In this document: positions 2,801 through 54,805 of the stretch, one piece after another
Layout of the letters: each line of letters starts with the position of its first letter
Position numbering within the stretch: the first letter of the stretch is position 1
Origin: a bacterium
GTDB lineage: Bacteria; Chloroflexota; Dormibacteria; Aeolococcales; Aeolococcaceae
Direction of reading: 5' to 3'
DNA: 60,755 nucleotides
Assembly (NCBI GenBank): GCA_014874355.1
Contig: JACWAJ010000065.1
Coordinates: 1 to 60,755 of the forward strand
Made by a program: the position numbers and the translations under genes
Notes under the pieces: model-generated
Databases searched by the model: none
Told to the model about the DNA's origin: nothing
What the model saw: the letters and a program-made list of their open reading frames with translations, nothing else

Positions 2801-3946
2801 TCACACCAAGTCGCTGCGGCCGTCGGCTTTGAGGCGGTTGACGATCTCCTTGACCGCTTGTGCGCGATCGGTGGGAACGACCAGGACCGCGTCGCCGGTG
2901 TCGACGATGGTGAGGTTGGAGACGCCCACCACGGCCACCAGGCGGCCGCCCCGTGACGAAACCAGGCAGTTATGGCTGTCCAGCGCCATGCCGTCGCCCT
3001 CGATGATGTTTCCCGATGCGTCGGCGTGGCCGCCGTCGCGTCGCGCCGCTGCGAGGTCGCACCAGGTGCCGAGGTCGGACCAGGAGAAAGTGGCCGAAAC
3101 CACGGTCAACTGCGACGTCCGCTCGAACACGAGAGGCTCGACGGCGACACTTTCTAAATTCGCGTAGAGGGCCGCAGCAGCCGGCTCGTCGCCAGTGCGG
3201 CGGGCTTCGACGACGCGACCAAGGGCGGTGTCGAGGCCTGCGTCGGCTTGGCGCAGCTCGTCCAGAAAAGTACGAGCCGGCCAGGCGAAGAGCCCGAGGT
3301 TCCAGAGATGCCGGCCGTCGCTGACAAAGCGTTCGGCTGTGCTCACCTCTGGCTTCTCGTGAAAGCCGAGGGCTACGTGCGCCCCCAGGCCGGCTGCTGC
3401 CTTCGCCAGAGCCGGCTCAGAGTCGGTACGGCCGGCGGGGCGCCACTCGGCTGCCTCCCGCCGCTCACCCAGTTCGATGTAGCCAAGGCCGGTTGCGGGG
3501 TATGTCGGGGTAATGCCCACCGTTGCCAGTCCACCCGTGCGCTCCGCCCAGCCGGCGGCGGCGTAGACCGCGGCTCGGTAGGCTTCGACGTCGCCCACGT
3601 GGTGGTCCGCATGTACCGAGCAGATGACCGCCTGCGGGTCGGCATCGGCAATCCAACGCGTCGCCAGACCCAGCGCCGGTCCGGTGCCTCGTGCCTGTGG
3701 TTCGGCGATGATGTTGGCGGCCGAAAGGCCGAGGCCTGCAACCGCTTCGAGGCACATCTCCGCCTGGCATGCGGCGGTGACGATATGAACCGAGTCCCCG
3801 ATGCCGAGGACTCGTGAAACCGTGTCTCGCAGCAGGCTTTGGCCTGTGGCGCCGAGCAGCAGCAGGTGTTTGGGTACGGCCTGCCGTGACAGCGGCCACA
3901 ATCGAGTACCGCTGCCCCCCGCCAGGACAAGTATGTGCAGGCCCAT
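2801..3946 (-). CDS. manC: Mannose-1-phosphate guanylyltransferase
   Basis: LAGGSGTRLWPLSR..PK, ADH, TGLGYI, FHEKP, WSDLGTW. Confidence 0.92.
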   Translation of the reverse strand: MGLHILVLAGGSGTRLWPLSRQAVPKHLLLLGATGQSLLRDTVSRVLGIGDSVHIVTAACQAEMCLEAVAGLGLSAANIIAEPQARGTGPALGLATRWIADADPQAVICSVHADHHVGDVEAYRAAVYAAAGWAERTGGLATVGITPTYPATGLGYIELGERREAAEWRPAGRTDSEPALAKAAAGLGAHVALGFHEKPEVSTAERFVSDGRHLWNLGLFAWPARTFLDELRQADAGLDTALGRVVEARRTGDEPAAAALYANLESVAVEPLVFERTSQLTVVSATFSWSDLGTWCDLAAARRDGGHADASGNIIEGDGMALDSHNCLVSSRGGRLVAVVGVSNLTIVDTGDAVLVVPTDRAQAVKEIVNRLKADGRSDLV

Positions 3947-3955
3947 GGCCTCAGA

Positions 3956-5176
3956 TCATGCCCTAGATACGGCTGCTTGGGTTGTGGGTGAGTGATTCCC
4001 GAGGACAGGCACCGTGAGCATCTGTGTGCTCGCCTCTTCGGCCAGCAACGCCGCTCTGTCGGTGCGTTCCCAGGGGAGATCCAGGTCGCTGCGTCCGAAG
4101 TGACCGAAAGCTGCCACCTGCTGGTAGATCGGTCGGCGCAGTTCGAGCGCGCCGATGATTCCGGCCGGCGAAAGATCGAAGTGGCGGTCGACGAGCCGGA
4201 CGATTTCCGACACAGGGATGGTTTCGGTGCCGAAGGTTTCGACGAAGATCGAAATCGGCTTGACCACGCCGATGGCGTAGGCGAGTTGAATCTCACACTT
4301 GGTGGCGAGCCCCGCGGCAACGAGGTTCTTGGCCACCCATCTCGCGCCATAGGCCGCGCTGCGGTCGACTTTGGTCGGATCCTTGCCGCTGAAAGCGCCG
4401 CCGCCGTGGCGGGCATAGCCGCCGTAGGTGTCGACGATGATCTTGCGGCCGGTGAGCCCGGCATCGCCTTGCGGGCCGCCCACGACAAATCGACCGGTGG
4501 GGTTCACGTAGCGTCGGGTCTGCGCATCGAGCCACTCGGCGGGGATGACCTCGTCGACGACATGCTTCTGGACGTCGTCGAAGATTTGCTCTGGAGAGAC
4601 GTCTTCAGAGTGCTGCACGGAAATCAGAATGGTGTCGACACGCAGCGGTCGTCCGAGGTCGTCGTATTCCACGGTGACCTGGGTCTTGCCGTCGGGCCGG
4701 GCCCAGCGCAAGATGCTCCGGCGCCGCTGCTGGCTGAGGCGTTGCGCCAGCCGGTGTGCCAGTTGGATCGGGGCCGGCATCAGTTCGGGGGTTTCGTCAC
4801 AGGCGAATCCGAACATCATTCCCTGGTCGCCGGCTCCGCCCCGGTTGACTCCCACTGCGATGTCGGGGGACTGCTCATCGATGCAGACGAGCACGCCGCA
4901 GGTTTCGTAGTCAAAGCCGTACTTGGCGCGCGTGTAGCCCACGTCGCGGATGGTCTTACGGACGATCCCCGGCACGTCTACGTAGGCGTCGGTCGAGATC
5001 TCTCCGAAAATGAGCGCGGTGCCGGTTGTCAGCGCCGTTTCACACGCGACGCGCCCGAGTGGATCCTTTTCGAGAACGGCGTCGAGGACGGCGTCTGAGA
5101 TCTGGTCGGCGATCTTGTCGGGATGACCCTCGGTCACCGATTCCGACGTGAAGATACGGCGGTCGTGAGATGCCAT
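3956..5176 (-). CDS. metK: S-adenosylmethionine synthetase
   Basis: [35 protein letters not shown]; AAGGAG RBS before ATG 5176. Confidence 0.98.
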
Positions 5177-17326: not shown

Positions 17327-17377
17327 ACAGGGCGTGACCGGTAGAGGTCCAGTCGCCGCCGGGGATGGAAAAGGAGT

Positions 17378-17760
17378 GCAAGTTGGCCTGTAAGCCGGGT
17401 TCTGTCCTCACCGCCTAGGCGGTGAGGGACGGCCATCCATCTAGGACGTCGATTGCCCGACGCCTCGTGCGGTCTGACCCGGGGATGGGACGAGCCGCCC
17501 TGGACACCGAAGTGTCCGCTCCCCTGTTCGACCTTGCTCCGGGCGGGGTTTGCCTGGCCGGCCGGTCACCCGGCCGCCGGGGGGCTCTTACCCCACCATT
17601 TCACCGTTGCCACAGCAGGGGTTGCCCCGTTGCCATGGCTGTGTAATTTCTGTGGCACTCTCCTTCGGGTCACCCCGACTGGGTGTTACCCAGCGCCCTT
17701 GCTCTTTGGAGCCCGGACTTTCCTCAGGCGTTGCCGCCCGCGACCGTCCAGCCAACTTGC
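17378..17760 (-). ncRNA. rnpB: RNase P RNA (bacterial type A)
   Basis: Minus strand contains GAGGAAAGTCCGGGCTC, AGTGCCACAGAAA, GGTAAGAGC, GGAGCAAG, ACAGAACCCGGCTTA; P1 is GCAAGTTGGC/GCCAACTTGC. Confidence 0.97.
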
Positions 17761-26307: not shown

Positions 26308-27331
26308 AGCTCAGGTTCTGCTCGTCAGCCGTCGTGGAGGCGTTGCCGAGGACTTGGTTCATGCCGTCCATGTGCCGCTGGAGGCCATTCCGATCAGCGG
26401 TCTGGATCTCGGCAACGCCCGCTCCATGGTTGCCTTCGCCAGCCGGCTGCCGGGCGGTCTGCTACATGCGCGCAGATTGATCCGACGCTTCGCGCCCGAT
26501 GTGGTGGTGGGTGCGGCGGGATACGTGTCCGTTCCAGTCGTTGCCGCGGCACGGATGGCGAAGATTCCGGTCGTCCTACTCGAACAGAACGCCTTGCCCG
26601 GCAGGGCGACGCGGCTGTTCGCTGGAGGAGCTCATGTGGTCGCGGCGTCATTTGCCGGTACGGCCAAGTCCCTGCCCAAAGCTCGTGTCGTTCATACCGG
26701 CAATCCCATCCGGGCGGAGGTGGAGGCAATACCGCGCAGGCCGCTTGGCGAGCGCTGCCGTCAGGTTCTGGTAATGGGGGGCAGCCAGGGGGCACGGCGG
26801 CTCAACGAGGCTGTGCTGGCCGGTCTTCGCGAACTCCTTGAATCTGACTCCGAGATTGCGGTTACGCACCAGACCGGAGCGCTGGACGAGGCGCGTGTGA
26901 CACGCTTTCGCCTTGCCCTGCCGGTGGAGTTGCAGGCCCGCTATCACGTTGCGGCGTTCTTCTCCGATATAGCCTCCGAAGAAGCGGCGGCCGATCTGAT
27001 CGTCATGCGGGCGGGTGGATCGTCGCTGGCCGAGGCCTCTGCCCTGGGACGTCCCATGGTGCTCGTGCCCTACCCTCACGCAGGTGGTCACCAGCAATAC
27101 AACGCCGCCCCCTACGTCGACATGAATGCCGCCGTGTCGGTGGACGATGCGGAGTTCTCGGGCAATCGCTTTGTCGCCGAGGTTCGCCGGATGATCGTCG
27201 ACCGGGCCCGTTGGCACGCGATGGCCAGGGCGTCATCGGCGATGGGCCGGCCGGATGCTGCTGCGCGCGTTGTCGAGTTGGTCGGCGAGGCCGCCACATG
27301 GCGCCAGTTCAAGGACAGGGTGCATTCATGA
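26219..27331 (+). CDS. murG: Lipid I GlcNAc transferase
   Basis: GGGTGGH, GYVS.P, EQN..PG, TGNPIR, GGSQGA, RAGGS, HQ.YNA. Confidence 0.96.
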   Translation: MRTLIAGGGTGGHLTPALALAQALQHSEAEAQVLLVSRRGGVAEDLVHAVHVPLEAIPISGLDLGNARSMVAFASRLPGGLLHARRLIRRFAPDVVVGAAGYVSVPVVAAARMAKIPVVLLEQNALPGRATRLFAGGAHVVAASFAGTAKSLPKARVVHTGNPIRAEVEAIPRRPLGERCRQVLVMGGSQGARRLNEAVLAGLRELLESDSEIAVTHQTGALDEARVTRFRLALPVELQARYHVAAFFSDIASEEAAADLIVMRAGGSSLAEASALGRPMVLVPYPHAGGHQQYNAAPYVDMNAAVSVDDAEFSGNRFVAEVRRMIVDRARWHAMARASSAMGRPDAAARVVELVGEAATWRQFKDRVHS

Positions 27332-28746
27332 CGGAGACGGTGGGGAGCCAGTTGCCGCAGCACGTCCACTTCCTGGGTGTCTGCGGCTATGCCGTAAGCG
27401 GAGCCGCGCTGCTTGCCAAGCAGATCGGCTGCATGGTTACCGGCAGCGACGATTGCGCCTATCCGCCGACAACCGATATCCTGACTGGGGCGGGTATACC
27501 CTGGGTCGACGGGAGCGATCCTGTCAATCTGGACCGCTGGGGGCTGCCCGACCTGGTCGTGGTGGGTAACCAGACCCGGCCTGGCAATCCCGAGTGGCAG
27601 GCGGTGCGCTCGCGGAGCATCCCCTACACGAGTGAGATCGAGTTCTTCGCACAACTCACCCAAGATCGTGTACGGCTCTCGGTGTGCGGTACCCACGGCA
27701 AGACGACAACCACGGCTTTACTGGCACACATGCTGGCTGTCGCAGGCCTGGATCCGGGCCTGAGGCTGGGTTCGACCTCGCTCGATCTCGGTGCCAGCGC
27801 ACGTCTGGGCAAAGGGCCGTTTGTGTTCGAAGGCGACGAATACACCACCGCCCCCTGGGATCCTCGGCCCAAATTCCTACACACCCGACCCCAGGCCGCC
27901 TGTGTAACGCGGCTCGAACTCGACCATCCCGACATCTACGCATCGCTAGATGCCTATCGTGAGCCCTTCGTGGAGCTGGCGAAATCCATGCCGGTGGACG
28001 GTCTGCTCGCGGTGTGTGCCGACGATTCCGAAGCGGTGGCCCTGGCGCCATCCGCCACCTGCCGTGTGGTGACCTACGGCGAATCACCAAGTGCCGGCTG
28101 GCGCATCTCCCATCTGCGCGATGTGGCCGGCGTGCAGCACTTCCACCTGAACGGAGAGGGGGCGGAACTCGAGGTGGCCCTCACCTTTCCGGGCCGCCAC
28201 AATGCGGCCAATGCTTGTGCCGCGCTGCTGCTGGCGGCATACGCCGGCGCATCTCTGCCGGACTGTCTTTTGGCATGCACCACCTTCCGCGGACCGGCGC
28301 GTCGCTTCCAGATCCTGGGTGAGGTTGGGGGATGCGCCGTGGTTGACGACTATGCCCATCATCCGACCGAGTGCCACGCCGCCATCGATGCGGCGCGGCA
28401 GCGCTATGCCGGGCGGCGTCTCATCGCCGTCCACACGCCGCACACGTATTCGCGCACGCTCACGCTGCTCGACGACTACGCCGATGTGTTCGAAGGCGCT
28501 GACGTGCTCCTCCTCGGTCCTATCGAGGCGGCCCGAGAACGTGGTCAGGAGGTCACGGTCACCAGTGAGGATGTGGCCGCGAGGGTGCGTCATGTGCCCC
28601 AAATTCAAGTTGTCGATACCAGTCAAGCGGCCATCGACCTGATCGGTGAAATCGTTCGAGACGGCGACGTCGTGCTGGTGCTGTCTTTGGGTGGGTTCGA
28701 CAAGATCGCATCGCGCATCCACGCGGCACTTAGGGCTCGTACCTGA
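27328..28746 (+). CDS. murC: UDP-MurNAc:L-Ala ligase (MurC/Mpl family)
   Basis: HFLGVCG, GTHGKTTT, EGDEY, DHPD, DDYAHHPTE, HTYSRT; position between murG and murB. Confidence 0.85.
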   Translation: MTETVGSQLPQHVHFLGVCGYAVSGAALLAKQIGCMVTGSDDCAYPPTTDILTGAGIPWVDGSDPVNLDRWGLPDLVVVGNQTRPGNPEWQAVRSRSIPYTSEIEFFAQLTQDRVRLSVCGTHGKTTTTALLAHMLAVAGLDPGLRLGSTSLDLGASARLGKGPFVFEGDEYTTAPWDPRPKFLHTRPQAACVTRLELDHPDIYASLDAYREPFVELAKSMPVDGLLAVCADDSEAVALAPSATCRVVTYGESPSAGWRISHLRDVAGVQHFHLNGEGAELEVALTFPGRHNAANACAALLLAAYAGASLPDCLLACTTFRGPARRFQILGEVGGCAVVDDYAHHPTECHAAIDAARQRYAGRRLIAVHTPHTYSRTLTLLDDYADVFEGADVLLLGPIEAARERGQEVTVTSEDVAARVRHVPQIQVVDTSQAAIDLIGEIVRDGDVVLVLSLGGFDKIASRIHAALRART

Positions 28747-28913
28747 ATAACATGGCACATCTCCATCCACCGATCCTCGCCGAATGCCAGCGTCAGCTTC
28801 TGCGCTTCTCGTTCAGGTACCTACCGGTACCATCACTGCGATGCTCGTTCGCTTCCTTGGCCTCGGCGGTCTCGGCGGCGGATCTGCACTATGTTATTCA
28901 GGTACGAGCCCTA
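28731..28913. mobile_element. Non-coding rod-shaped palindromic (MITE-like) element, copy 1
   Basis: Perfect 23-bp terminal inverted repeat TAGGGCTCGTACCTGAATAACAT (28731-28753 / 28891-28913), TA at both ends, nested internal stems. Confidence 0.75.
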
Positions 28914-28923
28914 GGCAACCGGC

Positions 28924-29868
28924 ATGCCTGAACCGGGTGGGATTGCAAGTTGGCCGGGGGCGCGCGCGGATGAACCGCTGGCGAGGCATTCGCAGTACGG
29001 CATAGGCGGGCCTGCAGACTGGTTCGTCAAGGTGGACGACGCGATGGCACTCGGCGATCTGCTCCGTCTGGCGAATGCGGCCGGACTGCCTGTCACTCCG
29101 ATCGGGGCGGGCAGTAACACGCTCATCCTTGATGGTGGCATCCGGGGCGTGGTGGTCGAAATCACCGACAAGGCGATGCGCGTCATCGACGATACGGTGA
29201 TCGAGCTTCGAGCCGGCTGCATGCTGCCTCGAGTGGCCCTGGACTGTGCTCGGCTGGGCCTTGCCGGGCTCGAGTTCGGCATTGGCATTCCGGGAACGTG
29301 TGGTGCCAGCATTCGTGGTAACGCCGGTGCCTTTGGTCGTGAGATCAAGGATGTTCTGCTGGAGTGCTCCGCGCTGGATGTGCAGGGTGCGATGCGTACG
29401 TTTTCGGCTTTGGAATGTCAGTTTGCTTATCGCACCTCGATCTTCAAACAGTCGCTCACAGACAGCATCGTCGTTGCGGCGCGTTTTGGCGTGACACCCA
29501 ACACCGCCTATGCCGTGCGGCGGCGTACCGCCGCCATCCAGGCACACCGCAAATCAACCCAGCCTTATGGTATTCGGAGTCTCGGTTCGGTTTTCACCAA
29601 CCCTCCGGGTGATCATGCCGGGCGCCTCGTAGAGGCGGTGGGGTTAAAGGGCGCTCGTCGCGGCGGGGCAGAGATATCGACCGTTCATGCCAATTTTATT
29701 GTCAACGTGGATCGAGCCACCGCACGAGACGTTCTTGACCTGGTGGAACTGGCTCACGACCGGGTGCTGGCGGACTTCGGCGTCGATCTTGTGCGCGAAA
29801 TCGTTGTCATGGGCGAGGATAAGGCGCGGTCGGAACCGTCGGTGACGAAGCGGAGGAGTGGCGGGTGA
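28924..29868 (+). CDS. murB: UDP-N-acetylenolpyruvoylglucosamine reductase
   Basis: IGGPAD, GAGSN, GLEFGIGIPGT.G....NAGA, F.YR.S, SLGSVF.NP, HANFIVN. Confidence 0.96.
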   Translation: MPEPGGIASWPGARADEPLARHSQYGIGGPADWFVKVDDAMALGDLLRLANAAGLPVTPIGAGSNTLILDGGIRGVVVEITDKAMRVIDDTVIELRAGCMLPRVALDCARLGLAGLEFGIGIPGTCGASIRGNAGAFGREIKDVLLECSALDVQGAMRTFSALECQFAYRTSIFKQSLTDSIVVAARFGVTPNTAYAVRRRTAAIQAHRKSTQPYGIRSLGSVFTNPPGDHAGRLVEAVGLKGARRGGAEISTVHANFIVNVDRATARDVLDLVELAHDRVLADFGVDLVREIVVMGEDKARSEPSVTKRRSGG

Positions 29869-31055
29869 GGCGTGTCGGTGTGGTTTTCGGCGGGCAGTCG
29901 GTTGAGCACGAAGTGTCGGTGATCACCGCCATGCAGGTGATGGCGGCATTGCCCGCGGCCGGTTACGTCGCCGTGCCGCTTTACATCGCCAAGTCGGGCA
30001 CCTGGTATACGGGTGACCTGTTGAACCGTCTCGATGCATTCCGGGATTTCGACCGGGTGCTGCGGGGTGCAATGGCGGTTACACCGCGGATTGACGGCGC
30101 GCATCCCGGCCGGCTCGATGTGGTGGGCGGTCGGCGCGGCATCTTGGGGCGTGGTTCCGCTGCCGAGATAAGCGTCGACGTGGTGCTGCCGCTAGTGCAT
30201 GGTTCTCATGGCGAGGACGGCACTCTGGCGGGGCTTTGCGAACTCTGGGGAGTGCCCTATGCCGGCTGTGGCGTGGCCGCTGCGGCGCTGTCCATGGACA
30301 AGTCGCTGGCCAAGCGCATATTCCGCGCAGCCGGTCTTCCCGTTCTCGATGACATGGTGGTTGAACGCCAGCATTGGCTCCAAGATTCCCCTGCCGCCGT
30401 CTCTAAGATCGAGCATTGCTTCGGCTATCCGGTCTTCGTCAAACCGGCAACTCTCGGTTCGTCGATTGGCGTTTCCCCCGCCGGATCTGCCCGCGAGCTG
30501 CGCGACGCCATCGACCTCGCCCTTGCTTACTCCGACCGGGTGCTGGTCGAGCCTCAAATGCAAGATATCGTGGAGATCAACTGTGCCGTGCTGGGAAGCG
30601 GTGACACCGTTCGCGCTTCAGCCCTGGAGCAACCTGTGGTCAGCGGGGTGCTCACCTATGCGGAAAAGTACGCAGGCGGGAAGAAGGCGGCAAATGCCGG
30701 CATGAAGGGCGCTCGGCGGATCGTCCCGGCACCGATCGACGTTGCGCTGGCCGGCCGCATAAGCCGGCTGGCCAAGGACGCATTTCACGCCATCGGGGCG
30801 GCGGGTGTCGCTCGAGTCGACTTCCTGGTCTCACCTGAGCGCGGTGAGGTCATCCTCAACGAGATCAACACAGTCCCGGGATCGCTGGCCTTCTATCTCT
30901 GGGAGGAGTCGGGACTTCCCTTTGCCGAGCTGCTGAACTCGCTCATCGACCTGGCGTTTGCCGCAGATGCAGAGAGATCGGGCACCACCTATTCGATCGA
31001 TTCGTGGTTGCTTGCGGGTGGGATCGGCGGGGTCAAGACGGGGGGCTCCGCCTGA
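29865..31055 (+). CDS. ddl: D-alanine--D-alanine ligase family
   Basis: FGGQSVEHEVS, HG..GEDG, MDK, FVKP..LGSSIG, EKY, ARVDF, NEINTVPGS. Confidence 0.93.
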   Translation: MRRVGVVFGGQSVEHEVSVITAMQVMAALPAAGYVAVPLYIAKSGTWYTGDLLNRLDAFRDFDRVLRGAMAVTPRIDGAHPGRLDVVGGRRGILGRGSAAEISVDVVLPLVHGSHGEDGTLAGLCELWGVPYAGCGVAAAALSMDKSLAKRIFRAAGLPVLDDMVVERQHWLQDSPAAVSKIEHCFGYPVFVKPATLGSSIGVSPAGSARELRDAIDLALAYSDRVLVEPQMQDIVEINCAVLGSGDTVRASALEQPVVSGVLTYAEKYAGGKKAANAGMKGARRIVPAPIDVALAGRISRLAKDAFHAIGAAGVARVDFLVSPERGEVILNEINTVPGSLAFYLWEESGLPFAELLNSLIDLAFAADAERSGTTYSIDSWLLAGGIGGVKTGGSA

Positions 31056-31060
31056 GTGCG

Positions 31061-31846
31061 ATGACTAACCTTCTCGACATCGTCACCGAGGTGCCGCCGG
31101 CCCACGTCTTGCTGGCGGGGGAGGGGCCGCCGGTGCTGTGTCTCCACGGCTGGGGCGCCAGTGCCGGATTGTTCGTGCCTCTGAGCCGCGAACTTGACGA
31201 TCGGTTCTTCCTGATCGCCCCCGATTTCCCGGGATTTGGCGCGACGCCCGTGCCTGAGCGACCTTGGAGCGTTGACGATTACGTCGTCTGGACACTCGCG
31301 CTTCTCGACCGTCTGGGACTCGTCCGTGTCGACATAGTTGCCCATTCGTTTGGGGCACGGGTGGCCATCAAACTCGCGGCAGCGCATCCTGAACGGGTTG
31401 GGCGCATGGTGCTCACAGGTGCGGCAGGGGTGCGCCCCAAGCGCGGTATCGGCTACTACTTGCGCGTGCGTACTTTCAAGTTGCTGAAGCGCGTGCGTTC
31501 CGCACATATGACCCTGAGGTGGGTACGAGATTGGGCCTGCCGTCGAGTCGAGCGCAGCGGTTCGCGCGACTACCAGGCTGCCGGCGGGGTGATGCGGGGA
31601 ACTTTCGTCAGCGTCGTCAATGAGGACCTTGTCGAGTGGCTGCCCAAGGTGACGGCATCCACCTTGCTGGTCTGGGGCGACCGCGACGACGAAACCCCGC
31701 TCCGTGATGGCCGTCTCATGGAGCAACGCATCCCCGACGCGGGTCTGGTGATATTCGAGGGACGGAGCCATTACGCCTACATCGAGGAGGCGGCGCGTTT
31801 CGCGCACATAGTGGCCACGTTCTTGAGCGGCGAGGCCGCAGCATGA
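31061..31846 (+). CDS. Alpha/beta hydrolase (esterase-like)
   Basis: LHGWG, D.PGFG, AHSFG nucleophile elbow, WG..D..TP, SHYAY. Confidence 0.9.
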   Translation: MTNLLDIVTEVPPAHVLLAGEGPPVLCLHGWGASAGLFVPLSRELDDRFFLIAPDFPGFGATPVPERPWSVDDYVVWTLALLDRLGLVRVDIVAHSFGARVAIKLAAAHPERVGRMVLTGAAGVRPKRGIGYYLRVRTFKLLKRVRSAHMTLRWVRDWACRRVERSGSRDYQAAGGVMRGTFVSVVNEDLVEWLPKVTASTLLVWGDRDDETPLRDGRLMEQRIPDAGLVIFEGRSHYAYIEEAARFAHIVATFLSGEAAA

Positions 31847-33462
31847 TCGGTGGCGTCGGAATTGCGATGGTGGCGTTGCTGTGGCTTCTGGCCATAACCC
31901 GTATCTCCGTTGTGGCGTCGCGAATGTTCCAGATCGAGGAATACGAGGCGCTCCGGCTCTGGAGATGGGCCAATGTGCGCGCCTGGAACTGGCATCGCGC
32001 GCTCGCCGTTGCGAGCGCTGCCGCTCTAGTCCTGGCAGGGGTTGCGGTACTGCGCAACGAATCCTATTGGGTCATCGCCGAGGGCCTCACGGGCACCGCG
32101 CTGCTCAACCTCTTGTGGCGCTGGCTGCCGCCCAAGAAGGCGCTGGTGTGGACGCCACGCATGCGCCGCCTATTCGCGACGACGGTGGTACTGGCGGTCG
32201 TCCTGACCGCCGCCGTCGCCATCCTGGCGCTTCGCAGTCCGGTGGTCGTGGGGGCGGTGGCCGTATGGGTCGGGATCTTCATGGCGAGCACCATCCCCGT
32301 CTTTCTGTTCGTAATTGCCAACTGGCTGATGGCTCCCGTCGAGGCCGGGGTGCGGTGCGGCTTTATCCGCCGTGCCCGCCGCCGCCTTGCCGCGGTCGAT
32401 CCGGTTGTCGTAGCGGTGGCGGGGAGTTGGGGCAAGACGTCGACCAAGCACATCCTCGCCCAGCTATTGCCCGCAGCTGCTTTCGCACTGCCCACGCCGC
32501 GGAGTTTCAACACCCTGATGGGGGTCACCCGCACCGTCAACGAGAATCTCGCGGATTCGCACAAGACGTTCATCGTGGAGATGGACGCTTACGCTCCGGG
32601 CGAGATCGCCTCCATTTGCGATCTGGTGCACCCGCGGCTTGCGATCGTGACCGCGGTGGGTCCGCAGCACCTCGAGCGTTTCGGCAGTATCGAGCGAATT
32701 GCAGACGCGCTGTACGAGACCGTCGCTGCGCTTCCCCCCGAGGGTGTCGCGATCATCTATGCGGGGGATCCCAGTTGTGCCGCACTGGCACTGCGCGCGG
32801 TCGGGGAGAAGCGCCGGGTCGTCACCTACGCCATGGAGGGCGAGGGCGTCAACGCCGACATCTCCGCGACCGACGTCCGGGTCGATGGTGGGGGTTCTCA
32901 CTTCATGTGGCGCTGGGGGGCGGAGCAACTGGAGACAAGGGTGGACGTGCCACTGCTGGGGCGTCATCAGGTGCTCAATGTCAGCGCCGCGTTGGCGGCT
33001 GTGCACCTGCTCGGCTTCGATGCGATCGCGGCGGTGTCATCTGCGGCACGGTTGCAACCTGTCGAGCACCGGCTGCAACCGGTTCCCAGTGGCCACGGAG
33101 TTGTCGTCATTGACGATTCCTACAACGCCAATCCCGTTGGCGTCCACAACGGCCTGGACGTCTTATCCGCGCTTGGCGAAGGCAAGAGGATCCTTGTGAC
33201 ACCGGGACTGGTTGAACTAGGCGCCGAGGAAGATGCCGAGAACCGGCGCTACGGTGAGCACGCGGCCCGTGTTTGCGATCACGTGATCGTCGTACGCGCC
33301 AAGACCACTGAGGCGTTACTGGCGGGCCTTGGCGCCGGGGGTATCGACGCGAAGGCCGTCCATGTGGTGGCATCGCTGGCCGAGGCCACCACGGTCATAG
33401 GTTCGCTTGCCCGTCGCGGAGACGTGGTTCTCTTCGCCAACGATCTTCCCGACACGTACTAA
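31843..33462 (+). CDS. murF: MurF with N-terminal multi-TM domain
   Basis: AGSWGKTSTK, SFNT.MG, VEM.A, GPQHLE.F, DDSYN.NP.G, TPG.VELG, NDLPD; about 170 hydrophobic N-terminal residues. Confidence 0.88.
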   Translation: MIGGVGIAMVALLWLLAITRISVVASRMFQIEEYEALRLWRWANVRAWNWHRALAVASAAALVLAGVAVLRNESYWVIAEGLTGTALLNLLWRWLPPKKALVWTPRMRRLFATTVVLAVVLTAAVAILALRSPVVVGAVAVWVGIFMASTIPVFLFVIANWLMAPVEAGVRCGFIRRARRRLAAVDPVVVAVAGSWGKTSTKHILAQLLPAAAFALPTPRSFNTLMGVTRTVNENLADSHKTFIVEMDAYAPGEIASICDLVHPRLAIVTAVGPQHLERFGSIERIADALYETVAALPPEGVAIIYAGDPSCAALALRAVGEKRRVVTYAMEGEGVNADISATDVRVDGGGSHFMWRWGAEQLETRVDVPLLGRHQVLNVSAALAAVHLLGFDAIAAVSSAARLQPVEHRLQPVPSGHGVVVIDDSYNANPVGVHNGLDVLSALGEGKRILVTPGLVELGAEEDAENRRYGEHAARVCDHVIVVRAKTTEALLAGLGAGGIDAKAVHVVASLAEATTVIGSLARRGDVVLFANDLPDTY

Positions 33463-33558
33463 GGCTCACGCTTTGCATGATTCTCGGGCATAATCAGGTG
33501 ACGGTCGTCAGCCCACTCCATAACGTCTTCTCAACGTCGGTGAATTGTCATTTCTCGT

Positions 33559-34683
33559 ATGGCCATCACGTCGCAGCGTTCTACCGCTAGCGCTGAGCGC
33601 GTCCAGCATCGTGCCAGGGTTCGCGCTCAGGCGGCGTCACTTGTCGACATCCCGAGTCGGCGGCGCGACTTTCGCACACCTTCAAGCCTCAACTTGCGTT
33701 CCACGTCGCGAAGGCGGCTCCATGCGCCGCAACCGCGTTGGCGGGTCGGCGAAGGTCACGGCAATTCGCGTCGTGGTGTGACCGTAGGGCTCCTTGTGCT
33801 CCAGGTTATTGGGTTGGTGCTGCTGCTGGTGCTGCCTGGCTTCCAGGTTCGCAACGTCAGCATTGCGGGAAGCCGCCTACTGACGCGAGAGGCGGTACTC
33901 GATGCGGCTTTGGTGCCTTCGCACAGCATCTTCACCGTCGATGGTGGTGCGATCCGTCAGCGTCTTATTGGCCTTCCGTGGATACGCAGTGCGACCGTCA
34001 CCACCGAGTTGCCCAATACCGTGAGTATTCACATCGTCGAGTGGTCGCCCAGTCTGCGGTTGCATCGCAATGGACATGACACGCTTGTCGCCGACTCTGG
34101 TGCCACCGTGGATACTTCGGCGGGGCGGCCGGACGTGGTGTCGAAAATCCCCGTCCTGGTTGATGAACGTACGGGTAAGACTGCGACTCTCGACCCCGCT
34201 CTCGTTCAGATGCTCGATGCCACGAGCAGTCGCTTCCCGGCGGTGTTTGGTTGCTCGGTTGCAGCCTATGAGTGGCGTGCTGACGGCATGCTCGTCATCT
34301 GGACGTCCACGGGATGGTCGGCGGTGCTAGGGCATATGGATGCCAGCGGCGAGGTGGCCGCCATTCCCGATCAACTGAGCTCGCTGGCCGCGCTCAAGGC
34401 TCATCTCAACTTCACCGCGCCGGGTTTTGGCTATGTCAATCTGGAAAATCCGGAGGCACCGGCAGTTGGCGGCACGCCGGGCTTGCCGCCAACTATCAAG
34501 GACGCTCTGACGTTGAGCGTTCCCAAACCTGCGTCGCCGTCAACACCGTCGGGGTCGACTGCTCAACCGGGTGGGCCCAAGGCGCCTGCGCCCACGCCAG
34601 TGCCCGCACCCACGCCGCCTCCCACACCTGCACCGACAGCGGCCCCGACACCCTACGTTTTCAACGTCCAGCTCTCACACTGA
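33559..34683 (+). CDS. ftsQ: Cell division protein FtsQ/DivIB
   Basis: Basic N-terminus, TM, POTRA (F.V..V.I.G...LPWI..A.V....PNTV.I.IVE), Pro/Thr-rich tail. Confidence 0.8.
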   Translation: MAITSQRSTASAERVQHRARVRAQAASLVDIPSRRRDFRTPSSLNLRSTSRRRLHAPQPRWRVGEGHGNSRRGVTVGLLVLQVIGLVLLLVLPGFQVRNVSIAGSRLLTREAVLDAALVPSHSIFTVDGGAIRQRLIGLPWIRSATVTTELPNTVSIHIVEWSPSLRLHRNGHDTLVADSGATVDTSAGRPDVVSKIPVLVDERTGKTATLDPALVQMLDATSSRFPAVFGCSVAAYEWRADGMLVIWTSTGWSAVLGHMDASGEVAAIPDQLSSLAALKAHLNFTAPGFGYVNLENPEAPAVGGTPGLPPTIKDALTLSVPKPASPSTPSGSTAQPGGPKAPAPTPVPAPTPPPTPAPTAAPTPYVFNVQLSH

Positions 34684-34730
34684 GGCCGAGAACTGCTGCC
34701 GAAAGGGCTGGCGTTGGCCATAGATTCGGC

Positions 34731-34756
34731 GGCGATATTTAGGGGCGATATTTAGG
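34731..34756 (+). repeat. Tandem 13-mer GGCGATATTTAGG x2
   Basis: Exact direct repeat, 34731-34743 and 34744-34756, upstream of the 34809 ORF promoter region. Confidence 0.8.
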
Positions 34757-34808
34757 CGGGCGCAACTTTGTCCGTTTCACGTCCGCGTTAGTCGGTTACC
34801 GTTTCGAC

Positions 34809-35441
34809 ATGGCAGAAAACACACCAAACACCGACAAGACCCCGGATACTCCGCTGGGCGGTTCGTCCAACCTCAGCTTTCACACCCGTCGCGTCGTCGC
34901 CGAAGGTAACGTCAAGGGACGTTGGGCGGGGTTTCGCGCCAGGCGTCGTGCCCGTATCGCGGAGTACAACGAGAAGCAGGCACTTCGGTATGCCAAGAAG
35001 GCAGGCGCAGCCACCGATGCGGCCGGGAAACTTCGTGCCGAGCAGGCTGAACTGGCCCGTCGTGCCGATGCGGCCCGCCAGTTAGAGCTGGTTGAGCAGC
35101 AGGCTGCGTCTGAGCGTCGTGCCGCCCAGATTGCTGAACTTGCCCGCTTTGACGCTGTGAGCCGCACACTCAAAGCCAAGCACTCCGTGGAGAGCACTGC
35201 CGCGGCCATCAAGATCGAGCAGGCCGAGAGGGCTCTGGTTGAGGCCAGGCAGGCTGCCGAGGCGGTTGAGCAGGAGCATGCCCAGGCCAATCTCCATCAC
35301 CAGGAGGCCAAGGCCAGCACCCGCATCGATCACCGCACTGCCAATAAGGCGGCGGCGGATGCCCTCAAGCGGGACGTGACCAAAATCGTTCGCGAGGGCA
35401 AGGGCCCCTGGAAGCACGTGGGCGGGGGCCGGGGACTCTAG
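34809..35441 (+). CDS. Hypothetical Ala/Arg/Glu-rich coiled-coil protein
   Basis: 210-aa ORF with helical composition, leaderless-type start (TACCGT-N6-ATG) and its own terminator. Confidence 0.75.
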   Translation: MAENTPNTDKTPDTPLGGSSNLSFHTRRVVAEGNVKGRWAGFRARRRARIAEYNEKQALRYAKKAGAATDAAGKLRAEQAELARRADAARQLELVEQQAASERRAAQIAELARFDAVSRTLKAKHSVESTAAAIKIEQAERALVEARQAAEAVEQEHAQANLHHQEAKASTRIDHRTANKAAADALKRDVTKIVREGKGPWKHVGGGRGL

Positions 35442-35461
35442 CCCGGCTGTCTCTGTAACTC

Positions 35462-35498
35462 AAAGCGGCTCCTCGTGAAAGCGGGGGGCCGCTTTTAT
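35462..35498. terminator. Terminator hairpin between convergent genes
   Basis: AAAGCGGCTCCTCGT-GAAA-GCGGGGGGCCGCTTT, then TAT. Confidence 0.75.
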
Positions 35499-35515
35499 CT
35501 ATGTAGACGTGATGT

Positions 35516-36400
35516 CTACTTGTGCTCCCACGGCTTGGCTACGCGCAGTGCCGAGAGGATGGCGCGGGTGGCCGGTGAGCGGTTGAGCGTGTAGAAGTGG
35601 ATGCCTGGCGCTCCGCCGGCAAGCAACTCCTGACATTGCAATGTCGCCCACGCGACGCCAAGTTGGACGACGGCCTCGGCGTCGTTGCGGCGCTCATCCA
35701 GTGCTGTGAGCAGAGCCGCGGGGATGGTGACCCCGATTTTGGATGTGAACCTTTTGATCTGCTCAACATTGGTGACGGGCATGATCCCCGGAATGATGGG
35801 AACGCTGATTCCGGCGGCACGCGATCGGGCCACGAAGTCGAAGTACAGGCGGTTGTCGAAAAAGAGTTGAGTGATGAGGAACCCGGCACCTTGGACCACC
35901 TTGAGCCGGGTGAAGGCAAGATCGCTCTCCAGGTCAGGCGACTCGATATGGCCTTCGGGGTAACAAGCGGCGCCGATACAAAAAGCGTACTTGGCGGAAA
36001 TCAGCGCGGCCAGTTCGCTGCCGTGACGCAGGCCGTCGTTGGAGTTGTGGAACCCGGAGGCGCCGTCGGGTGGGTCTCCCCGCAACGCCAGAACATTGTC
36101 GATATGGGCATCTTGAAGCTCATCGAGCACGCTGCATAGTTCCTGGCGACTGGCACCTACACATGTCAGGTGTGCCATCGGCTCGATGCCAAGATCACCC
36201 CTGAGCCGCTTGACCAGTTCCACTGTGCGGGTCCGGGTGCTGCCGTTGGCGCCGTAGGTCACCGAGACAAAGCTCGGATCGAGACTTTTGAGTTGTGCGA
36301 TGGCGCTAAACAGGCTTTCCAGAGCTGCTTCGTTGCGTGGCGGGAAGAACTCGAAGGAGAAGCTGGGAATCCTCTGAGAGAGGATCTCGACGATGCGCAT
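35516..36400 (-). CDS. metF: 5,10-methylenetetrahydrofolate reductase
   Basis: SFEFFPP, FVSVTYGA.GS, AHLTC, LALRGDPP, YPEGH, ITQLFFD, HFYTLN. Confidence 0.96.
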   Translation of the reverse strand: MRIVEILSQRIPSFSFEFFPPRNEAALESLFSAIAQLKSLDPSFVSVTYGANGSTRTRTVELVKRLRGDLGIEPMAHLTCVGASRQELCSVLDELQDAHIDNVLALRGDPPDGASGFHNSNDGLRHGSELAALISAKYAFCIGAACYPEGHIESPDLESDLAFTRLKVVQGAGFLITQLFFDNRLYFDFVARSRAAGISVPIIPGIMPVTNVEQIKRFTSKIGVTIPAALLTALDERRNDAEAVVQLGVAWATLQCQELLAGGAPGIHFYTLNRSPATRAILSALRVAKPWEHK

Positions 36401-36425
36401 GTGCTGCATGGTAGGTTGCGTGTCC

Positions 36426-37475
36426 ATGCGAGCGGTGTTTGCGAAGACGTTTGGCGGCGACGACCCGGTTGGCAACCTGCGGATCGGTGATGTGGCCGAC
36501 CCCGTGCCGGCGCCGGGGGAGGTGAGGGTTCGTGTGACTGCGGCCACGCTGAATCACCATGACCTGTGGACACTCAAGGGCGTGGGCTCGCGGTCGTTTC
36601 CCGGGTCTCAGGTGCTCGGTATGGATGCTGCGGGAGTGGTCGACAGCTACGGCGATGGGGCCCGCGCTGGCACTGTGCCTGTCGGCGACCGCGTCGTGCT
36701 CTATCCGGTGTTCGGATGTGGTGCTTGTGATGCCTGTCTGGCCGGCGACCAGTTGCTATGTCCGCGGATTGGCCTGCTGAGTGAGCCGCCGCGTGGGGGC
36801 ACGCTGGCGGAGTATGTGGTGGTTCCCGTTCAAAGTCTGGTGGCGCTACCCGATTCCATTGACGACGTGGTTGCCGCGTGCCTGCCCACCGCCTACCTGA
36901 CGGCCTACCGGATGCTGTTCCAGTGTGCCGGACTGCGTCCGGGCCAGAGCGTTTTGGTTCAGGGGGCGAGCGGTGGTGTGGCCACCGCAGCCATTCTCCT
37001 GGCTCGCGTTCATGGCATCACCGTCTTTGCCACGTCGAGGACCGAGGCCAAGCGCAGTGCCGCTCTCGAACTTGGCGCCACCGCTGCCTTCGACCCGGCT
37101 GATCGGGCTGCGGTCAAACAACTCATCGCGGCAACCGGGGGCGGAGTAGACGCTGTGGTTGAAACCGTCGGCGATCCAACCTGGGATTTCAGCCTTCGCG
37201 CCGTCCGTCCCGGAGGCACGATTGTCGTCGTCGGCGTCACCGGAGGGGCCAACCCTGCGGCGCAACTCAATCGTGTCTTCTGGCGCCATATCACGATTGC
37301 CGGTTCGAGCATGGGCACCCGCTCTGAACTCGTGCGCCTCGTCGCCCTCTGTGCCAACGGAACACTGTCACCCCTCGTCGATTCGGTTACCGACTTCGAC
37401 GGCGTGGCCGATGCCATGCAGAAGATGGCCGACGGCAAACACTTTGGCAAACTGGTGATACGCGTTTCGGGATGA
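36426..37475 (+). CDS. Zinc-binding MDR dehydrogenase/quinone oxidoreductase
   Basis: LNHHDLW, CGACDAC..C, TAYRML, GASGGVA, HFGKLV. Confidence 0.9.
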   Translation: MRAVFAKTFGGDDPVGNLRIGDVADPVPAPGEVRVRVTAATLNHHDLWTLKGVGSRSFPGSQVLGMDAAGVVDSYGDGARAGTVPVGDRVVLYPVFGCGACDACLAGDQLLCPRIGLLSEPPRGGTLAEYVVVPVQSLVALPDSIDDVVAACLPTAYLTAYRMLFQCAGLRPGQSVLVQGASGGVATAAILLARVHGITVFATSRTEAKRSAALELGATAAFDPADRAAVKQLIAATGGGVDAVVETVGDPTWDFSLRAVRPGGTIVVVGVTGGANPAAQLNRVFWRHITIAGSSMGTRSELVRLVALCANGTLSPLVDSVTDFDGVADAMQKMADGKHFGKLVIRVSG

Positions 37476-37489
37476 GCCCCAGCCGCAGC

Positions 37490-37672
37490 TAAGCCTGGAT
37501 CCACCGTGAAACCGAAGCAGACCGCCACTCGGGCGAGTCCAGGGCAAGGCGCCGCCGAGCACGAGAGGGAGTGCATCTGAATGATGCATGACCAAACGCG
37601 CGCAGAAGGCAACGCAGCCATGGACCGGCTAATTGAGCGAGATGCGAGGGGCTCACGGTGGATCCAGGCTAA
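37490..37672. mobile_element. Non-coding rod-shaped palindromic (MITE-like) element, copy 2
   Basis: 17-bp terminal inverted repeat GCCTGGATCCACCGTGA (37493-37509 / 37653-37669) flanked by TAA direct repeats; interior homologous to 28731-28913. Confidence 0.75.
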
Positions 37673-54431: not shown

Positions 54432-54805
54432 GGGGGCGTATGGTTTCGACGGGGTCGTGGGTCACACGATGGCGAACCGAGCCCCGGGCTCGTAAAACCG
54501 GGAAAAATATAAGTGCGGATAGAACTGCACTTCCTATGGCTGCCTAACAGCACCTAGGAAATACGCCCAGGGCAATGCTCTGGCGTCGACCGCTCTCTCG
54601 ACTGCGGGGGGCGGAGCCGACGTTAATACCAGTGGTCTTGCCGCTCGGTGGCGCTTCAGCGCCGGGCGGGACATTCACTGAGGCTGGCCGGAGCGGAGCC
54701 TGGTCCCAGGGCGCCACGCCGGTGAGATCAATACCGGGACTACGTTCGTAGATGTCGTGCGGAACGCGGCTTCGGACCCGGGTTCGATACCCGGCGCCTC
54801 CACCA
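54432..54805 (+). ncRNA. ssrA: tmRNA; tag reading frame (A)ADRTALPMAA* at 54515-54547
   Basis: 5' GGGGGCG..GGTTTCGAC; 3' T-arm GACCCGGGTTCGATACCCGG followed by CGCCTCCACCA; resume context ATAAGT-GCG; tag ends in AA. Confidence 0.96.

What the first reader, a model, noticed from the sequence alone, without database searches (positions are those of the whole stretch)
28731..37672. Two homologous ~180-bp rod-shaped elements with unrelated termini but covarying interiors
Seen: element 1 (28731-28913, plus strand) and element 2 (37490-37672, read on the minus strand) are the same length. Each is closed by a long perfect inverted repeat, but the repeats differ (GGGCTCGTACCTGAATAACAT vs GCCTGGATCCACCGTGA). 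The interiors align in order: GCA(CA)TCTC, ATG(C/G)C(A/T)GCGT, an identical CTTCTGCGC, TCA plus apical hairpin plus (A/C)TC(A/C)CT, TGCTCG, CCTTG(G/C)CCT, GGCGG(A)TCTGC. Paired positions change compensatorily: GGTAC/GTACC vs TGCAT/ATGCA, GCC/GGC vs GGC/GCC, CCGA/TCGG vs TCCA/TGGA. Unpaired loop bases are kept. On the purine-rich strand both carry GC-GCA-GA facing GA-GC, a kink-turn-like tandem G.A arrangement. Inference: selection acts on a single-stranded fold (RNA or ssDNA) rather than on terminal sequence, which is the reverse of a classical MITE. This could be a dispersed structured-RNA or ssDNA element family mobilised or bound in trans. No transposase is encoded in the window.
Basis: partly seen in the sequence, partly recalled or inferred. 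Interest (0 to 1): 0.85.

Follow-up and report, generated by a model that had tools for sequence, protein, structure and literature searches.

The report
Hairpin MITEs with borrowed transposon ends
The two ~180-bp hairpin repeats are non-autonomous mini-transposons that share one conserved, folded core but carry end sequences copied from different families of insertion sequences, an unusual modular design seen across an uncultured bacterial lineage.

Summary
e1 (28732-28912 +) and e2 (37492-37670 -) are real long hairpins with perfect but different terminal inverted repeats and homologous interiors. They are not a pair. The family gives 37 HMM hits in this 1.45-Mb genome, 21 of them full length. 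It recurs in related genomes labelled Ca. Dormiibacterota or Chloroflexota.

The "unrelated termini" have an explanation: they are inverted repeats of insertion sequences from three transposase families.
- e1's terminus matches the IR of an ISAzo13-family IS found in a relative.
- e2's terminus matches the IRs of IS1380-family ISs found in relatives.
- The expanding subfamily in this genome carries the left IR of an intact IS1182-family IS on contig C32.

So these are type II MITEs. The unusual part is the shared ~135-nt core:
- It is more conserved than the termini (66% vs about 40% pairwise identity).
- It covaries strongly: 95.9% of cells paired, covariation score 0.60 vs 0.18 in shuffles.
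- It also occurs without transposon ends in some Chloroflexota-labelled genomes.
- It is reshuffled relative to terminus class.

There is no Rfam match, and five full-text searches found no description. What the core does is unresolved; I favour a DNA-level hairpin chassis over an RNA. I rate it a new variant of a known kind, of moderate to high interest.

The parts
28732..28912 (+). Element e1: a 181-bp MITE copy (AG...CT) with ISAzo13-type termini, flanked by T-A on both sides.
   Evidence: Sequence read. Ends defined. Family HMM hit 2.4e-40. CM hit on the core at 28754-28892, E 1.2e-21.
28731..28753 (+). e1 left terminal inverted repeat (23 nt, perfect with 28891-28913).
   Evidence: It matches the left IR of an ISAzo13-family IS in a relative (L190): global score 12, 0 of 1000 shuffles as high (IS ends read).
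28891..28913 (+). e1 right terminal inverted repeat.
   Evidence: 22 consecutive Watson-Crick pairs counted inward from the AG/CT ends.
28754..28892 (+). e1 conserved core: an imperfect hairpin with short covarying helices and conserved internal loops.
   Evidence: CM R1 hit. Leave-out HMM hit E 2.6e-21. Covariation.
37492..37670 (-). Element e2: a 179-bp MITE copy with IS1380-type termini. Its sibling at G000:C71:1025-1203 is 97% identical.
37653..37670 (-). e2 5' terminal inverted repeat (18 nt, perfect with 37492-37509).
   Evidence: 19 of 24 positions are identical to IRs of IS1380-family ISs in relatives (L187, L189), shuffle p <= 0.0005. The transposase was identified.
37492..37509 (-). 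e2 3' terminal inverted repeat.
37510..37649 (-). e2 conserved core.
   Evidence: Row 2 of alignment A3. Leave-out HMM hit at 37538-37646, E 1.2e-4. In the core tree it sits nearest to 'core-only' elements of Chloroflexota-labelled genomes.
27211..28746 (+). Upstream ORF whose last five codons and TGA stop lie inside e1's left arm, so the element supplies the gene's end.
   Evidence: ORF list. Frame read. My own gene call (overlap -15).

Best explanation
e1 and e2 are two old copies of one family of ~180-bp non-autonomous transposable elements (type II MITEs). The family is built from two modules.

Module 1 is a ~135-nt conserved core that folds into an imperfect hairpin.

Module 2 is a pair of 18-27-bp terminal inverted repeats. 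These are copies of the inverted repeat of an insertion sequence. Different subfamilies carry ends from different IS families:
- ISAzo13-type: e1.
- IS1380-type: e2.
- IS1182-type: the near-identical copies now breaking this assembly.

DDE transposases supplied in trans cut and paste the elements. For the IS1182-type subfamily the supplier is the intact IS at G000:C32:1-1487. Insertion is at TA-containing sites (CTAG, TTAG, TAA), which in a 63% GC, ~88% coding genome are mostly stop codons. Many copies therefore sit flush with gene ends.

Shown: the family, the fold constraint, the matches between termini and IS ends, and the partner IS.

Inferred:
1. The core is a DNA-level hairpin 'chassis'. 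By folding on single-stranded or extruded DNA it brings the two ends together.
2. The same folding lets one arm template the other. This would explain why both arms copy one IS end (the left IR) and stay almost perfectly complementary while their sequence drifts.
3. Cores and termini are reshuffled between copies by conversion of the central segment.

e1 and e2 themselves are probably immobile now. This genome has no ISAzo13 transposase, and its only IS1380 has different ends.
For: Family size and spread:
- nhmmer with the family HMM gives 37 hits in G000: 21 full length, 11 cut by contig ends and 5 variant or remnant hits.
- blastn finds the family in 6 of 41 relatives.
- The CM finds the core in 12 of 151 sampled genomes of the phylum at E <= 1e-5.
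- 60 of the loci L021-L139 scanned (pattern loci plus relatives' loci; L026 and L029 left out) hold family HMM hits.

Not coding: there is no 3-nt periodicity, and stops occur in most frames.

Partner IS in the same genome:
- G000:C32:1-1487 has imperfect IRs and a 422-aa transposase that scores 365 bits against the IS1182 family model, cut-off 270.
- Both arms of the young subfamily match its left IR at 17-18 of 18 positions. They match its right IR at only 13-15. The IS's own two IRs agree at 14 of 18.
- The MITE interior is unrelated to the IS interior.

Partners for e2 and e1 in relatives:
- e2: 19 of 24 positions match IRs of ~1.6-kb ISs in three relatives. The transposase of one (L187) scores 306 bits against the IS1380 model, and that IS has a 5-bp direct repeat.
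- e1: its arm matches the IR of a 1296-bp IS whose 415-aa transposase scores 594 bits against the ISAzo13 model.

Assignment of the 20 full copies in G000:
- 6 IS1182-type.
- 4 ISAzo13-type, plus 1 weak.
- 2 IS1380-type.
- 7 unassigned.

Flanks: all 9 left and all 9 right flanks of the young subfamily read TA next to the element, mostly as cTA|G...C|TAg.

Fold constraint: 95.9% of cells are paired and the covariation score is 0.604 vs 0.183 in shuffles, 0 of 500 as high.

Terminal stems:
- 323 of 340 cells are Watson-Crick in the 17 copies counted.
- Within terminus classes there are at least 23 compensated pair changes, 10 of them transversions, against 15 unpaired cells of 280.

Reshuffling, from the core tree:
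- The AGAACG-type terminus sits on two well-supported, different core lineages: C74 groups with C6/C25 (100/95) and C10 with C51 (100/93).
- Starred branches force at least 2 origins each for the IS1182-type and IS1380-type labels.
Against: - No empty site or presence/absence polymorphism was found, so mobility is inferred and not seen.
- Target duplications are ambiguous for the older copies, including e1 and e2. Only 9-14 of 20 fit any single model when I read the flanks by eye.
- 7 of 20 termini have no identified IS partner. The AGAACG-type is essentially confined to this genome among the 117 family genomes searched.
- The ISAzo13 and IS1380 partners were found only in other genera.
- Conserved, non-palindromic internal-loop sequences are not explained by a purely structural chassis.
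- At least one copy in a relative has 3 of 20 arm mismatches (alignment). Arms therefore do decay in place, and homogenisation, if real, is not continuous.
- The core tree rests on 92 columns and its bootstrap had not settled.
- The hairpin-templating step is not tested at all.
Confidence: 0.62

Rival explanations
1. The core is a functional structured RNA and the transposon ends are only its vehicle. It would be a cis-acting intergenic or 3'-UTR element, for example an mRNA stabiliser, a processing site or a translational coupler. Selection on the RNA fold and on its loop sequences would keep the core conserved across genera.
For: - Covariation is strong, with conserved internal loops.
- 'Core-only' copies fill intergenic gaps inside operons: argJ-argB in L136, dnaJ-clpB in L114 and rpsJ-rplC in L105, L135 and L061.
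- In G000, 11 of 13 copies lying between tandem genes have the pyrimidine-rich strand as sense, and 17 of 56 element ends overlap a stop codon by <= 4 nt.
- The purine-rich strand folds more stably in 19 of 20 copies, mean -101.5 vs -91.1 kcal/mol.
Against: - The orientation bias is not reproduced in 45 copies from other genomes: 11 sense vs 7 antisense among tandem cases, with crude gene calls.
- The rpsJ-rplC site holds the element in both orientations in different genomes.
- The strand favoured by folding energy is the opposite of the strand favoured by orientation in G000.
- G:U-type exceptions are no commoner than A:C-type ones: 13 vs 11 of 975 cells.
- No Rfam family matches at E <= 1 to 5.
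Confidence: 0.22
2. The core is neutral filler. It looks conserved because the family spread recently, partly by horizontal transfer. Apparent covariation would come from arm-to-arm correction of a palindrome (template switching or mismatch repair in hairpins), not from selection for a function.
For: - Exceptions to pairing are symmetric between strands.
- Compensated changes include many transversions and there are hardly any wobble intermediates. This fits copying better than stepwise selection.
- Both arms derive from one IS end.
Against: - Arm-to-arm correction should make the whole palindrome perfect. Instead the core keeps the same asymmetric internal loops, with near-invariant sequence, across 65 copies from many genomes.
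- Paired positions are islands of two base pairs.
- Termini diverge faster than the core: 0.39-0.42 vs 0.66 pairwise identity.
- The core occurs in several families of the class and in one further family of the phylum.
Confidence: 0.1
3. One reading: a structure-recognised single-stranded-DNA element moved by an HUH or Y1 enzyme, as with REPIN/RAYT, IS200/IS605-type elements or attC sites. DDE transposases would play no role.
For: - Structure is conserved over sequence at the termini.
- Core-only copies without IS-type ends exist and are multi-copy in some genomes. These must spread by some other route.
Against: - No Y1 transposase passes threshold in a 98.8% complete genome. The best hit is 19.8 bits against a 23-bit cut-off, over 25 residues.
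- The termini match IS inverted repeats of three DDE families.
- There is no fixed target tetranucleotide on one side only.
- Orientation shows no relation to local GC skew.
Confidence: 0.05

Closest known systems
Type II MITEs. They share only their terminal inverted repeats with an autonomous IS. Definition read in passages of PMC10969869, section 2.2; that review gives Sulfolobus MITEs and Coxiella QMITEs as examples.
   Same: - Small (172-186 bp), non-coding and multi-copy.
- TIRs match the IR of an IS in the same genome while the interior is unrelated to that IS.
- The whole element folds into a long hairpin.
   Different: - One homologous core is shared by subfamilies whose TIRs come from three different IS families.
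- The core is better conserved than the TIRs and covaries.
- The core also exists without TIRs.
- I found no description of such a design in the five full-text searches. ISfinder could not be consulted.
ERIC and Correia elements of enterobacteria and Neisseria. Passages read in PMC3184786.
   Same: - Imperfect palindromes of 100-160 bp with a TA motif at both termini.
- Often lie at gene 3' ends and are co-transcribed.
- Sequence is conserved across genera.
   Different: - ERIC and Correia have one conserved TIR type. Here the TIRs are the variable part and the core the constant part.
- No transcript or RNase data exist for this family.
- The host lineage is unrelated.
REPINs mobilised by RAYT (Y1) transposases. 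PMC3116915, seen in the search listing and abstract only.
   Same: Dispersed ~100-nt hairpins in intergenic DNA whose two arms evolve together. The core-only copies resemble this lifestyle.
   Different: - No RAYT or Y1 gene was found.
- The arms are not two copies of one short palindrome.
- IS-type TIRs are present on most copies in this genome.
Integron attC sites (recalled from general knowledge, not from a call).
   Same: Recognition by folded structure more than by sequence, with imperfect palindromes and conserved unpaired positions.
   Different: - attC sites sit in cassette arrays next to an integrase and have a conserved core site. These elements are dispersed singly.
- These elements have IS ends.
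- No integrase link was examined.

Membership tests
MITE (type II) | Small size (about 50-500 bp) and no transposase or other coding capacity. | tested here: met
   Copies are 172-186 bp. There is no codon periodicity, and stops occur in most frames.
MITE (type II) | Terminal inverted repeats that match the IR of an autonomous IS, with the interior unrelated to it. | tested here: met
   - IS1182-type subfamily against the IS at G000:C32: 17-18 of 18 positions; interiors unrelated.
- e2 against IS1380 IRs in relatives: 19 of 24, p <= 0.0005.
- e1 against an ISAzo13 IR in a relative: 0 of 1000 shuffles as high.
- 7 of 20 copies remain unassigned.
MITE (type II) | Partner transposase present in the same genome for the given copy. 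| tested here: not met
   This holds for e1 and e2 specifically. G000 has no ISAzo13 transposase. Its IS1380 at C60 has different IRs. The feature is met only for the IS1182-type subfamily.
MITE (type II) | Target-site duplication. | tested here: inconclusive
   The young subfamily is always flanked by TA on both sides, mostly within CTAG. TA is self-complementary, so it cannot be told apart from an extension of the IR. The flanks of e1, e2 and the other old copies fit no single model.
MITE (type II) | Evidence of movement: empty sites or insertion polymorphism. | tested here: inconclusive
   No joints skip the elements in contigs of 3 DNA runs from one study. Indirect evidence: a dozen contig-end fragments 97-99% identical to the C39 copy.
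Any Rfam RNA family | Covariance-model match at the gathering score, or at least a low E-value. | tested here: not met
   The only window hits are RNase P and tmRNA, elsewhere. Nothing at E <= 1 on three copies with flanks, nor at E <= 5 on e1.
REPIN/RAYT or IS200/IS605-type ssDNA elements | A Y1 (HUH) transposase in the genome. | tested here: not met
   PF01797 gives one sub-threshold hit: 19.8 bits against a 23-bit cut-off, over 25 residues.
Kink-turn-bearing RNA | A three-nucleotide bulge followed by tandem sheared G.A pairs, flanked by canonical and non-canonical stems. | not tested
   No dedicated test was run. The only related result is that the purine-rich strand folds more stably in 19 of 20 copies.

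The most novel reading that the evidence does not exclude
The ~135-nt hairpin core is an independent genetic entity that predates its transposon ends. It persists as a naked intergenic hairpin in some lineages. In others it has repeatedly acquired the inverted repeat of whichever IS is active, from at least three unrelated transposase families, by copying a single IS end onto both arms. On this reading it is a promiscuous 'MITE chassis' whose fold actively promotes its own capture and mobilisation.
Probability: 0.3. Interest if true: 0.8.

Novelty: new variant of a known kind. Interest (0 to 1): 0.6.

Why it matters
MITEs are usually explained as decayed copies of one IS, and their interior is treated as filler. 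This family differs in four ways:
- The interior is the conserved, structurally constrained part.
- The transposase-binding ends are interchangeable across three IS families.
- Both arms appear to be copied from one IS end.
- The same core exists without any ends.

If the chassis reading is right, it gives a concrete route for making MITEs de novo and for one parasite to exploit several transposases. It would also offer a testable case of hairpin-templated arm homogenisation.

If the RNA reading is right, it is a new, widespread structured RNA of a poorly known, uncultured lineage, spread by transposons.

Either way the family explains most contig breaks in this assembly, and it alters gene 3' ends. 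e1, for example, supplies the last five codons and the stop of the upstream ORF.

Tried and rejected
- Protein-coding reading: rejected. Column entropy shows no 3-nt periodicity, and stops occur in most frames of most copies.
- Known RNA family: none.
- Replication-linked orientation: by eye there is no relation between element strand and local GC skew.
- IS630 (PF13358) partner in G000: none.
- e1 terminus as a diverged IS1182 IR: not significant, shuffle p 0.1-0.4. I dropped this once the ISAzo13 match was found.
- IS partner for the AGAACG-type terminus: not found. The motif is nearly confined to G000 among 117 family genomes.
- TIRs for the relic IS5-like gene on C72: none found. The gene is truncated and sits next to an IS3-like fragment.
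- Plus-frame ORF of L190: no family. The minus-frame ORF is the ISAzo13 transposase.
- Plasmids and phages: no blastn match to a young-subfamily copy at E <= 1e-3.
- Expression: no RNA holder listed.
- Empty sites: the contigs of three DNA runs break inside the elements and show no joint across them.
- Orthology of the two e1-type copies in genus g19: flanks are not alignable beyond about 12 nt, so no in-situ evolution test was possible.
- Target-duplication models of 2, 3 and 4 bp: none fits more than 14 of 20 copies. I read these by eye, with no statistic.
- Literature: five full-text searches and term searches within three papers found no description of this family or of a shared core with ends from several IS families. 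ISfinder and paper supplements were not available, and I cannot exclude that a MITE catalogue in a supplement lists it.

Rows dropped or not independent:
- One search used 45 of the 46 outside copies listed. L132:6919-7081 was left out without a test. The one search list already required E <= 1e-9 and at least 85 model positions.
- The 17-copy count omits C65, C57a and C39, which have terminal indels. Its class comparison uses 14 of 20 copies.
- The HMM and model R1 were built from alignments that include e1 and e2. Their scores for those two copies are therefore not independent; one search gives the leave-out values.
- The gene calls are my own crude codon-usage caller. They were shown wrong at L136 and L114.

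Full report
**1. What is in the window**

- e1 is closed by a perfect 23-bp inverted repeat at 28731-28753 / 28891-28913.
- e2 is closed by a perfect 18-bp inverted repeat at 37492-37509 / 37653-37670.
- Both fold as rods far below shuffled controls: z = -9.96 and -8.74, with 0 of 200 shuffles as good in each case.

Both are intergenic. The ORF 27211-28746 runs five codons into e1 and stops there. Rfam finds only RNase P RNA and tmRNA elsewhere in the window, and nothing at the elements even at E <= 5.

**2. A family, not a pair**

The window is contig C50 of a 1.45-Mb, 76-contig, 63% GC assembly rated 98.8% complete. A family HMM gives 37 hits in this genome:
- 21 full-length copies;
- 11 cut by contig ends;
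- one 157-bp variant;
- one internally deleted copy, counted as two hits;
- two remnants.

A dozen contig-end fragments are 97-99% identical to the copy on C39. One subfamily has therefore expanded recently and breaks the assembly.

Direct blastn does not link e1 to e2, but leave-out models do:
- An HMM built without e2 and its sibling finds e2's interior only (37538-37646, E 1.2e-4).
- An HMM built without any e1-type copy finds e1's interior only (28762-28902, E 2.6e-21).

The interiors are therefore homologous and the termini are not. Across the 20 full-length copies aligned (C56, cut by a contig end, was left out), mean pairwise identity is 0.66 in the core against 0.42 and 0.39 in the two terminal 26 columns. 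The elements do not code: there is no 3-nt periodicity and stops are frequent.

**3. Where else it occurs**

- blastn finds the family in 6 of 41 relatives.
- The confirmed records carry titles such as Candidatus Dormiibacterota, Chloroflexi/Chloroflexota, uncultured Chloroflexia and Ca. Limnocylindria.
- A covariance model of the core finds it in 12 of 151 sampled genomes of the phylum at E <= 1e-5. These lie in four families of the window's class and one further family, with up to 21 or more scored matches per genome.
- No match in the plasmid or phage collections.

**4. The fold is constrained**

I aligned the cores of 65 copies, 20 from this genome and 45 from others. RNAalifold predicts 15 pairs: a 4-5-bp apical helix and five 2-bp helices separated by internal loops. 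Thirteen of the 15 pairs show changes on both sides.

With controls:

| Measure | Observed | Shuffled | Shuffles as high |
|---|---|---|---|
| Cells paired | 95.9% | 73.2% | 0 of 500 |
| Covariation score | 0.604 | 0.183 | 0 of 500 |

Sliding the partners by 1-3 columns gives 33-46% paired and scores of 0.088 or less.

The loops are pyrimidine-rich on the strand as drawn and nearly invariant in sequence. Exceptions to pairing are symmetric between strands: 13 G:T against 11 A:C in 975 cells. Wobble tolerance therefore does not point to an RNA of either strand. Folding energy favours the purine-rich strand in 19 of 20 copies.

**5. The termini are IS ends from three families**

(a) IS1182-type.
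- Contig C32 begins with a 1487-bp IS. It has imperfect IRs (14 of 18 identical to each other) and a 422-aa transposase.
- The transposase scores 365 bits against the IS1182 family model (cut-off 270).
- Both arms of the young subfamily match its left IR at 17-18 of 18 positions, and its right IR at only 13-15.
- Beyond about 20 nt the MITE and the IS are unrelated.
- Related IS1182 copies with similar IRs occur in relatives.

(b) IS1380-type.
- e2's terminus recurs in relatives as inverted pairs 1.6 kb apart.
- One such IS (L187) encodes a 443-aa transposase scoring 306 bits against the IS1380 model, and has a 5-bp direct repeat.
- e2's arm is 19 of 24 identical to these IRs, shuffle p <= 0.0005.
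- The genome's own IS1380 (C60, about 3289-4971) has different IRs and is flanked by CTAG on both sides.

(c) ISAzo13-type.
- e1's terminus occurs next to a 415-aa transposase scoring 594 bits against the ISAzo13 model.
- That gene lies in a 1296-bp IS bounded by matching IRs and TAA on both sides.
- e1's arm matches that IR with 0 of 1000 shuffles as high.
- G000 has no ISAzo13 or IS630-type transposase.

Of the 20 full copies, 6 are IS1182-type, 4 are ISAzo13-type (plus 1 weak), 2 are IS1380-type and 7 are unassigned. Among 65 copies from all genomes, 20 have both arms matching one of these three IR sets at a score of 10 or more (only 1 of 65 shuffled controls reached even 9); the weaker-scoring C21 copy was added to the ISAzo13 label in the tree of section 7, making 21. 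The rest have other paired termini or none.

**6. Terminal stems**

In the 17 copies without terminal indels, 323 of 340 outer-stem cells are Watson-Crick, with 5 G:T, 4 A:C and 8 other. Within terminus classes there are at least 23 compensated pair changes, 13 transitions and 10 transversions, against 15 unpaired cells of 280.

The arms are not always perfect. About half the copies carry one or two mismatches or a bulge, and a copy in a relative has 3 mismatches in 20.

The IS's own two IRs differ, yet the MITE arms agree with each other and with one IR. The simplest reading is that one end was duplicated in inverted orientation, or that the arms are homogenised. A plain internal deletion of an IS would not give this.

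**7. Cores and termini are reshuffled**

In a maximum-likelihood tree of core columns only, terminus labels cluster but are not single clades. Starred branches force at least two origins each for the IS1182-type and IS1380-type labels.

The AGAACG-type terminus sits on two well-supported core lineages: C74 groups with C6/C25 (100/95) and C10 with C51 (100/93). e2's core is nearest to core-only elements. The tree has only 92 columns and an unsettled bootstrap, so the counts are rough.

**8. Core-only copies**

In several Chloroflexota-labelled genomes the element is only the ~135-nt hairpin, closed by a short stem with no IS-type ends. It fills gaps inside operons:
- argJ-argB in L136;
- dnaJ-clpB in L114;
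- rpsJ-rplC in L105, L135 and L061.

At rpsJ-rplC the element is in the sense orientation in L105 and antisense in L135 and L061.

**9. Insertion sites and orientation**

Young copies are always flanked by TA on both sides, mostly within CTAG. In this genome 17 of 56 called element sides overlap a stop codon by no more than 4 nt.

Among 21 copies with genes called on both sides:
- 11 lie between tandem genes with the drawn strand as sense, and 2 as antisense;
- 4 lie between convergent genes;
- 4 lie between divergent genes.

The bias is weak in 45 outside copies: 11 against 7, with crude gene calls that were shown wrong at two loci. I treat it as suggestive only. No relation to GC skew was seen.

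**10. Reading**

Shown:
- A type II MITE family.
- A partner IS in the same genome for one subfamily.
- IS-derived ends of three families.
- A conserved, covarying core that also exists without ends.

Inferred:
- Trans-mobilisation by DDE transposases into TA-containing sites.
- A DNA-level hairpin role for the core in synapsis and arm templating.
- Conversion of central segments between copies.

The main rival is an RNA function of the core. It explains the conserved loops better, but it fits the orientation data and the G:T/A:C symmetry less well. No transcript data could be obtained and no empty sites were seen.

**11. Known or new**

The kind is known: MITEs whose only likeness to an IS is the TIR (passages of PMC10969869), and TA-flanked palindromic repeats such as ERIC and Correia (passages of PMC3184786).

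I found no report of one core shared by subfamilies with ends from several IS families, nor any report of repeats in this lineage (searches; term searches). ISfinder, paper supplements and the scan's own earlier findings were not available.

Noticed in passing
L125:437-1187 (a genome record titled Chloroflexi bacterium CF_121): An IS1380-type copy whose core has been tandemly amplified: 4.9 copies of a 128-bp unit plus 2.6 copies of a 50-bp unit, between normal termini. This is a minisatellite inside a MITE.
   Followed up: partly
L105:5535-5673, L135:2477-2614, L061:454-592: Core-only copies sit in the rpsJ-rplC gap of the S10 ribosomal-protein operon in three genomes. One is in the sense orientation and two are antisense.
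   Followed up: partly
window 27211-28746: The ORF upstream of e1 reads five codons into the element and uses a TGA inside the left arm, so the insertion has rewritten the protein's C-terminus.
   Followed up: partly
window 17375-17759 (-) and 54432-54805 (+): RNase P RNA class A (272 bits) and a one-piece tmRNA (167 bits) with predicted tag ADRTALPMAA.
   Followed up: no
G000 as a whole: The genome is 1.45 Mb at 98.8% estimated completeness, while the family relatives searched are 1.6-4.9 Mb. It looks like a reduced genome that nonetheless keeps about 30 copies of this repeat.
   Followed up: no
G000:C60:3289-4971: A 1683-bp IS1380-family element with matching IRs, flanked by CTAG on both sides. 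This is the same tetranucleotide that flanks the IS1182-type MITEs and the C32 IS.
   Followed up: partly
G000:C72:23150-24300: A truncated IS5-family transposase gene followed by what looks, by eye, like a fragment of an IS3-type integrase core. No terminal repeats were found, so these look like decayed ISs.
   Followed up: partly
G000:C40:3017-3148 and G000:C57:10078-10234: Shortened derivatives of the family: one lacks model positions 68-123, and the other is a 157-bp variant with its own 12-bp terminal stem.
   Followed up: no
G000:C51:64214-64231, C6:585-600, C67:28465-28480, C23:48227-48242: Solo terminus-like arms preceded by TA at gene ends, with no partner arm within 3.5 kb. They could be footprints or truncated copies.
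   Followed up: partly
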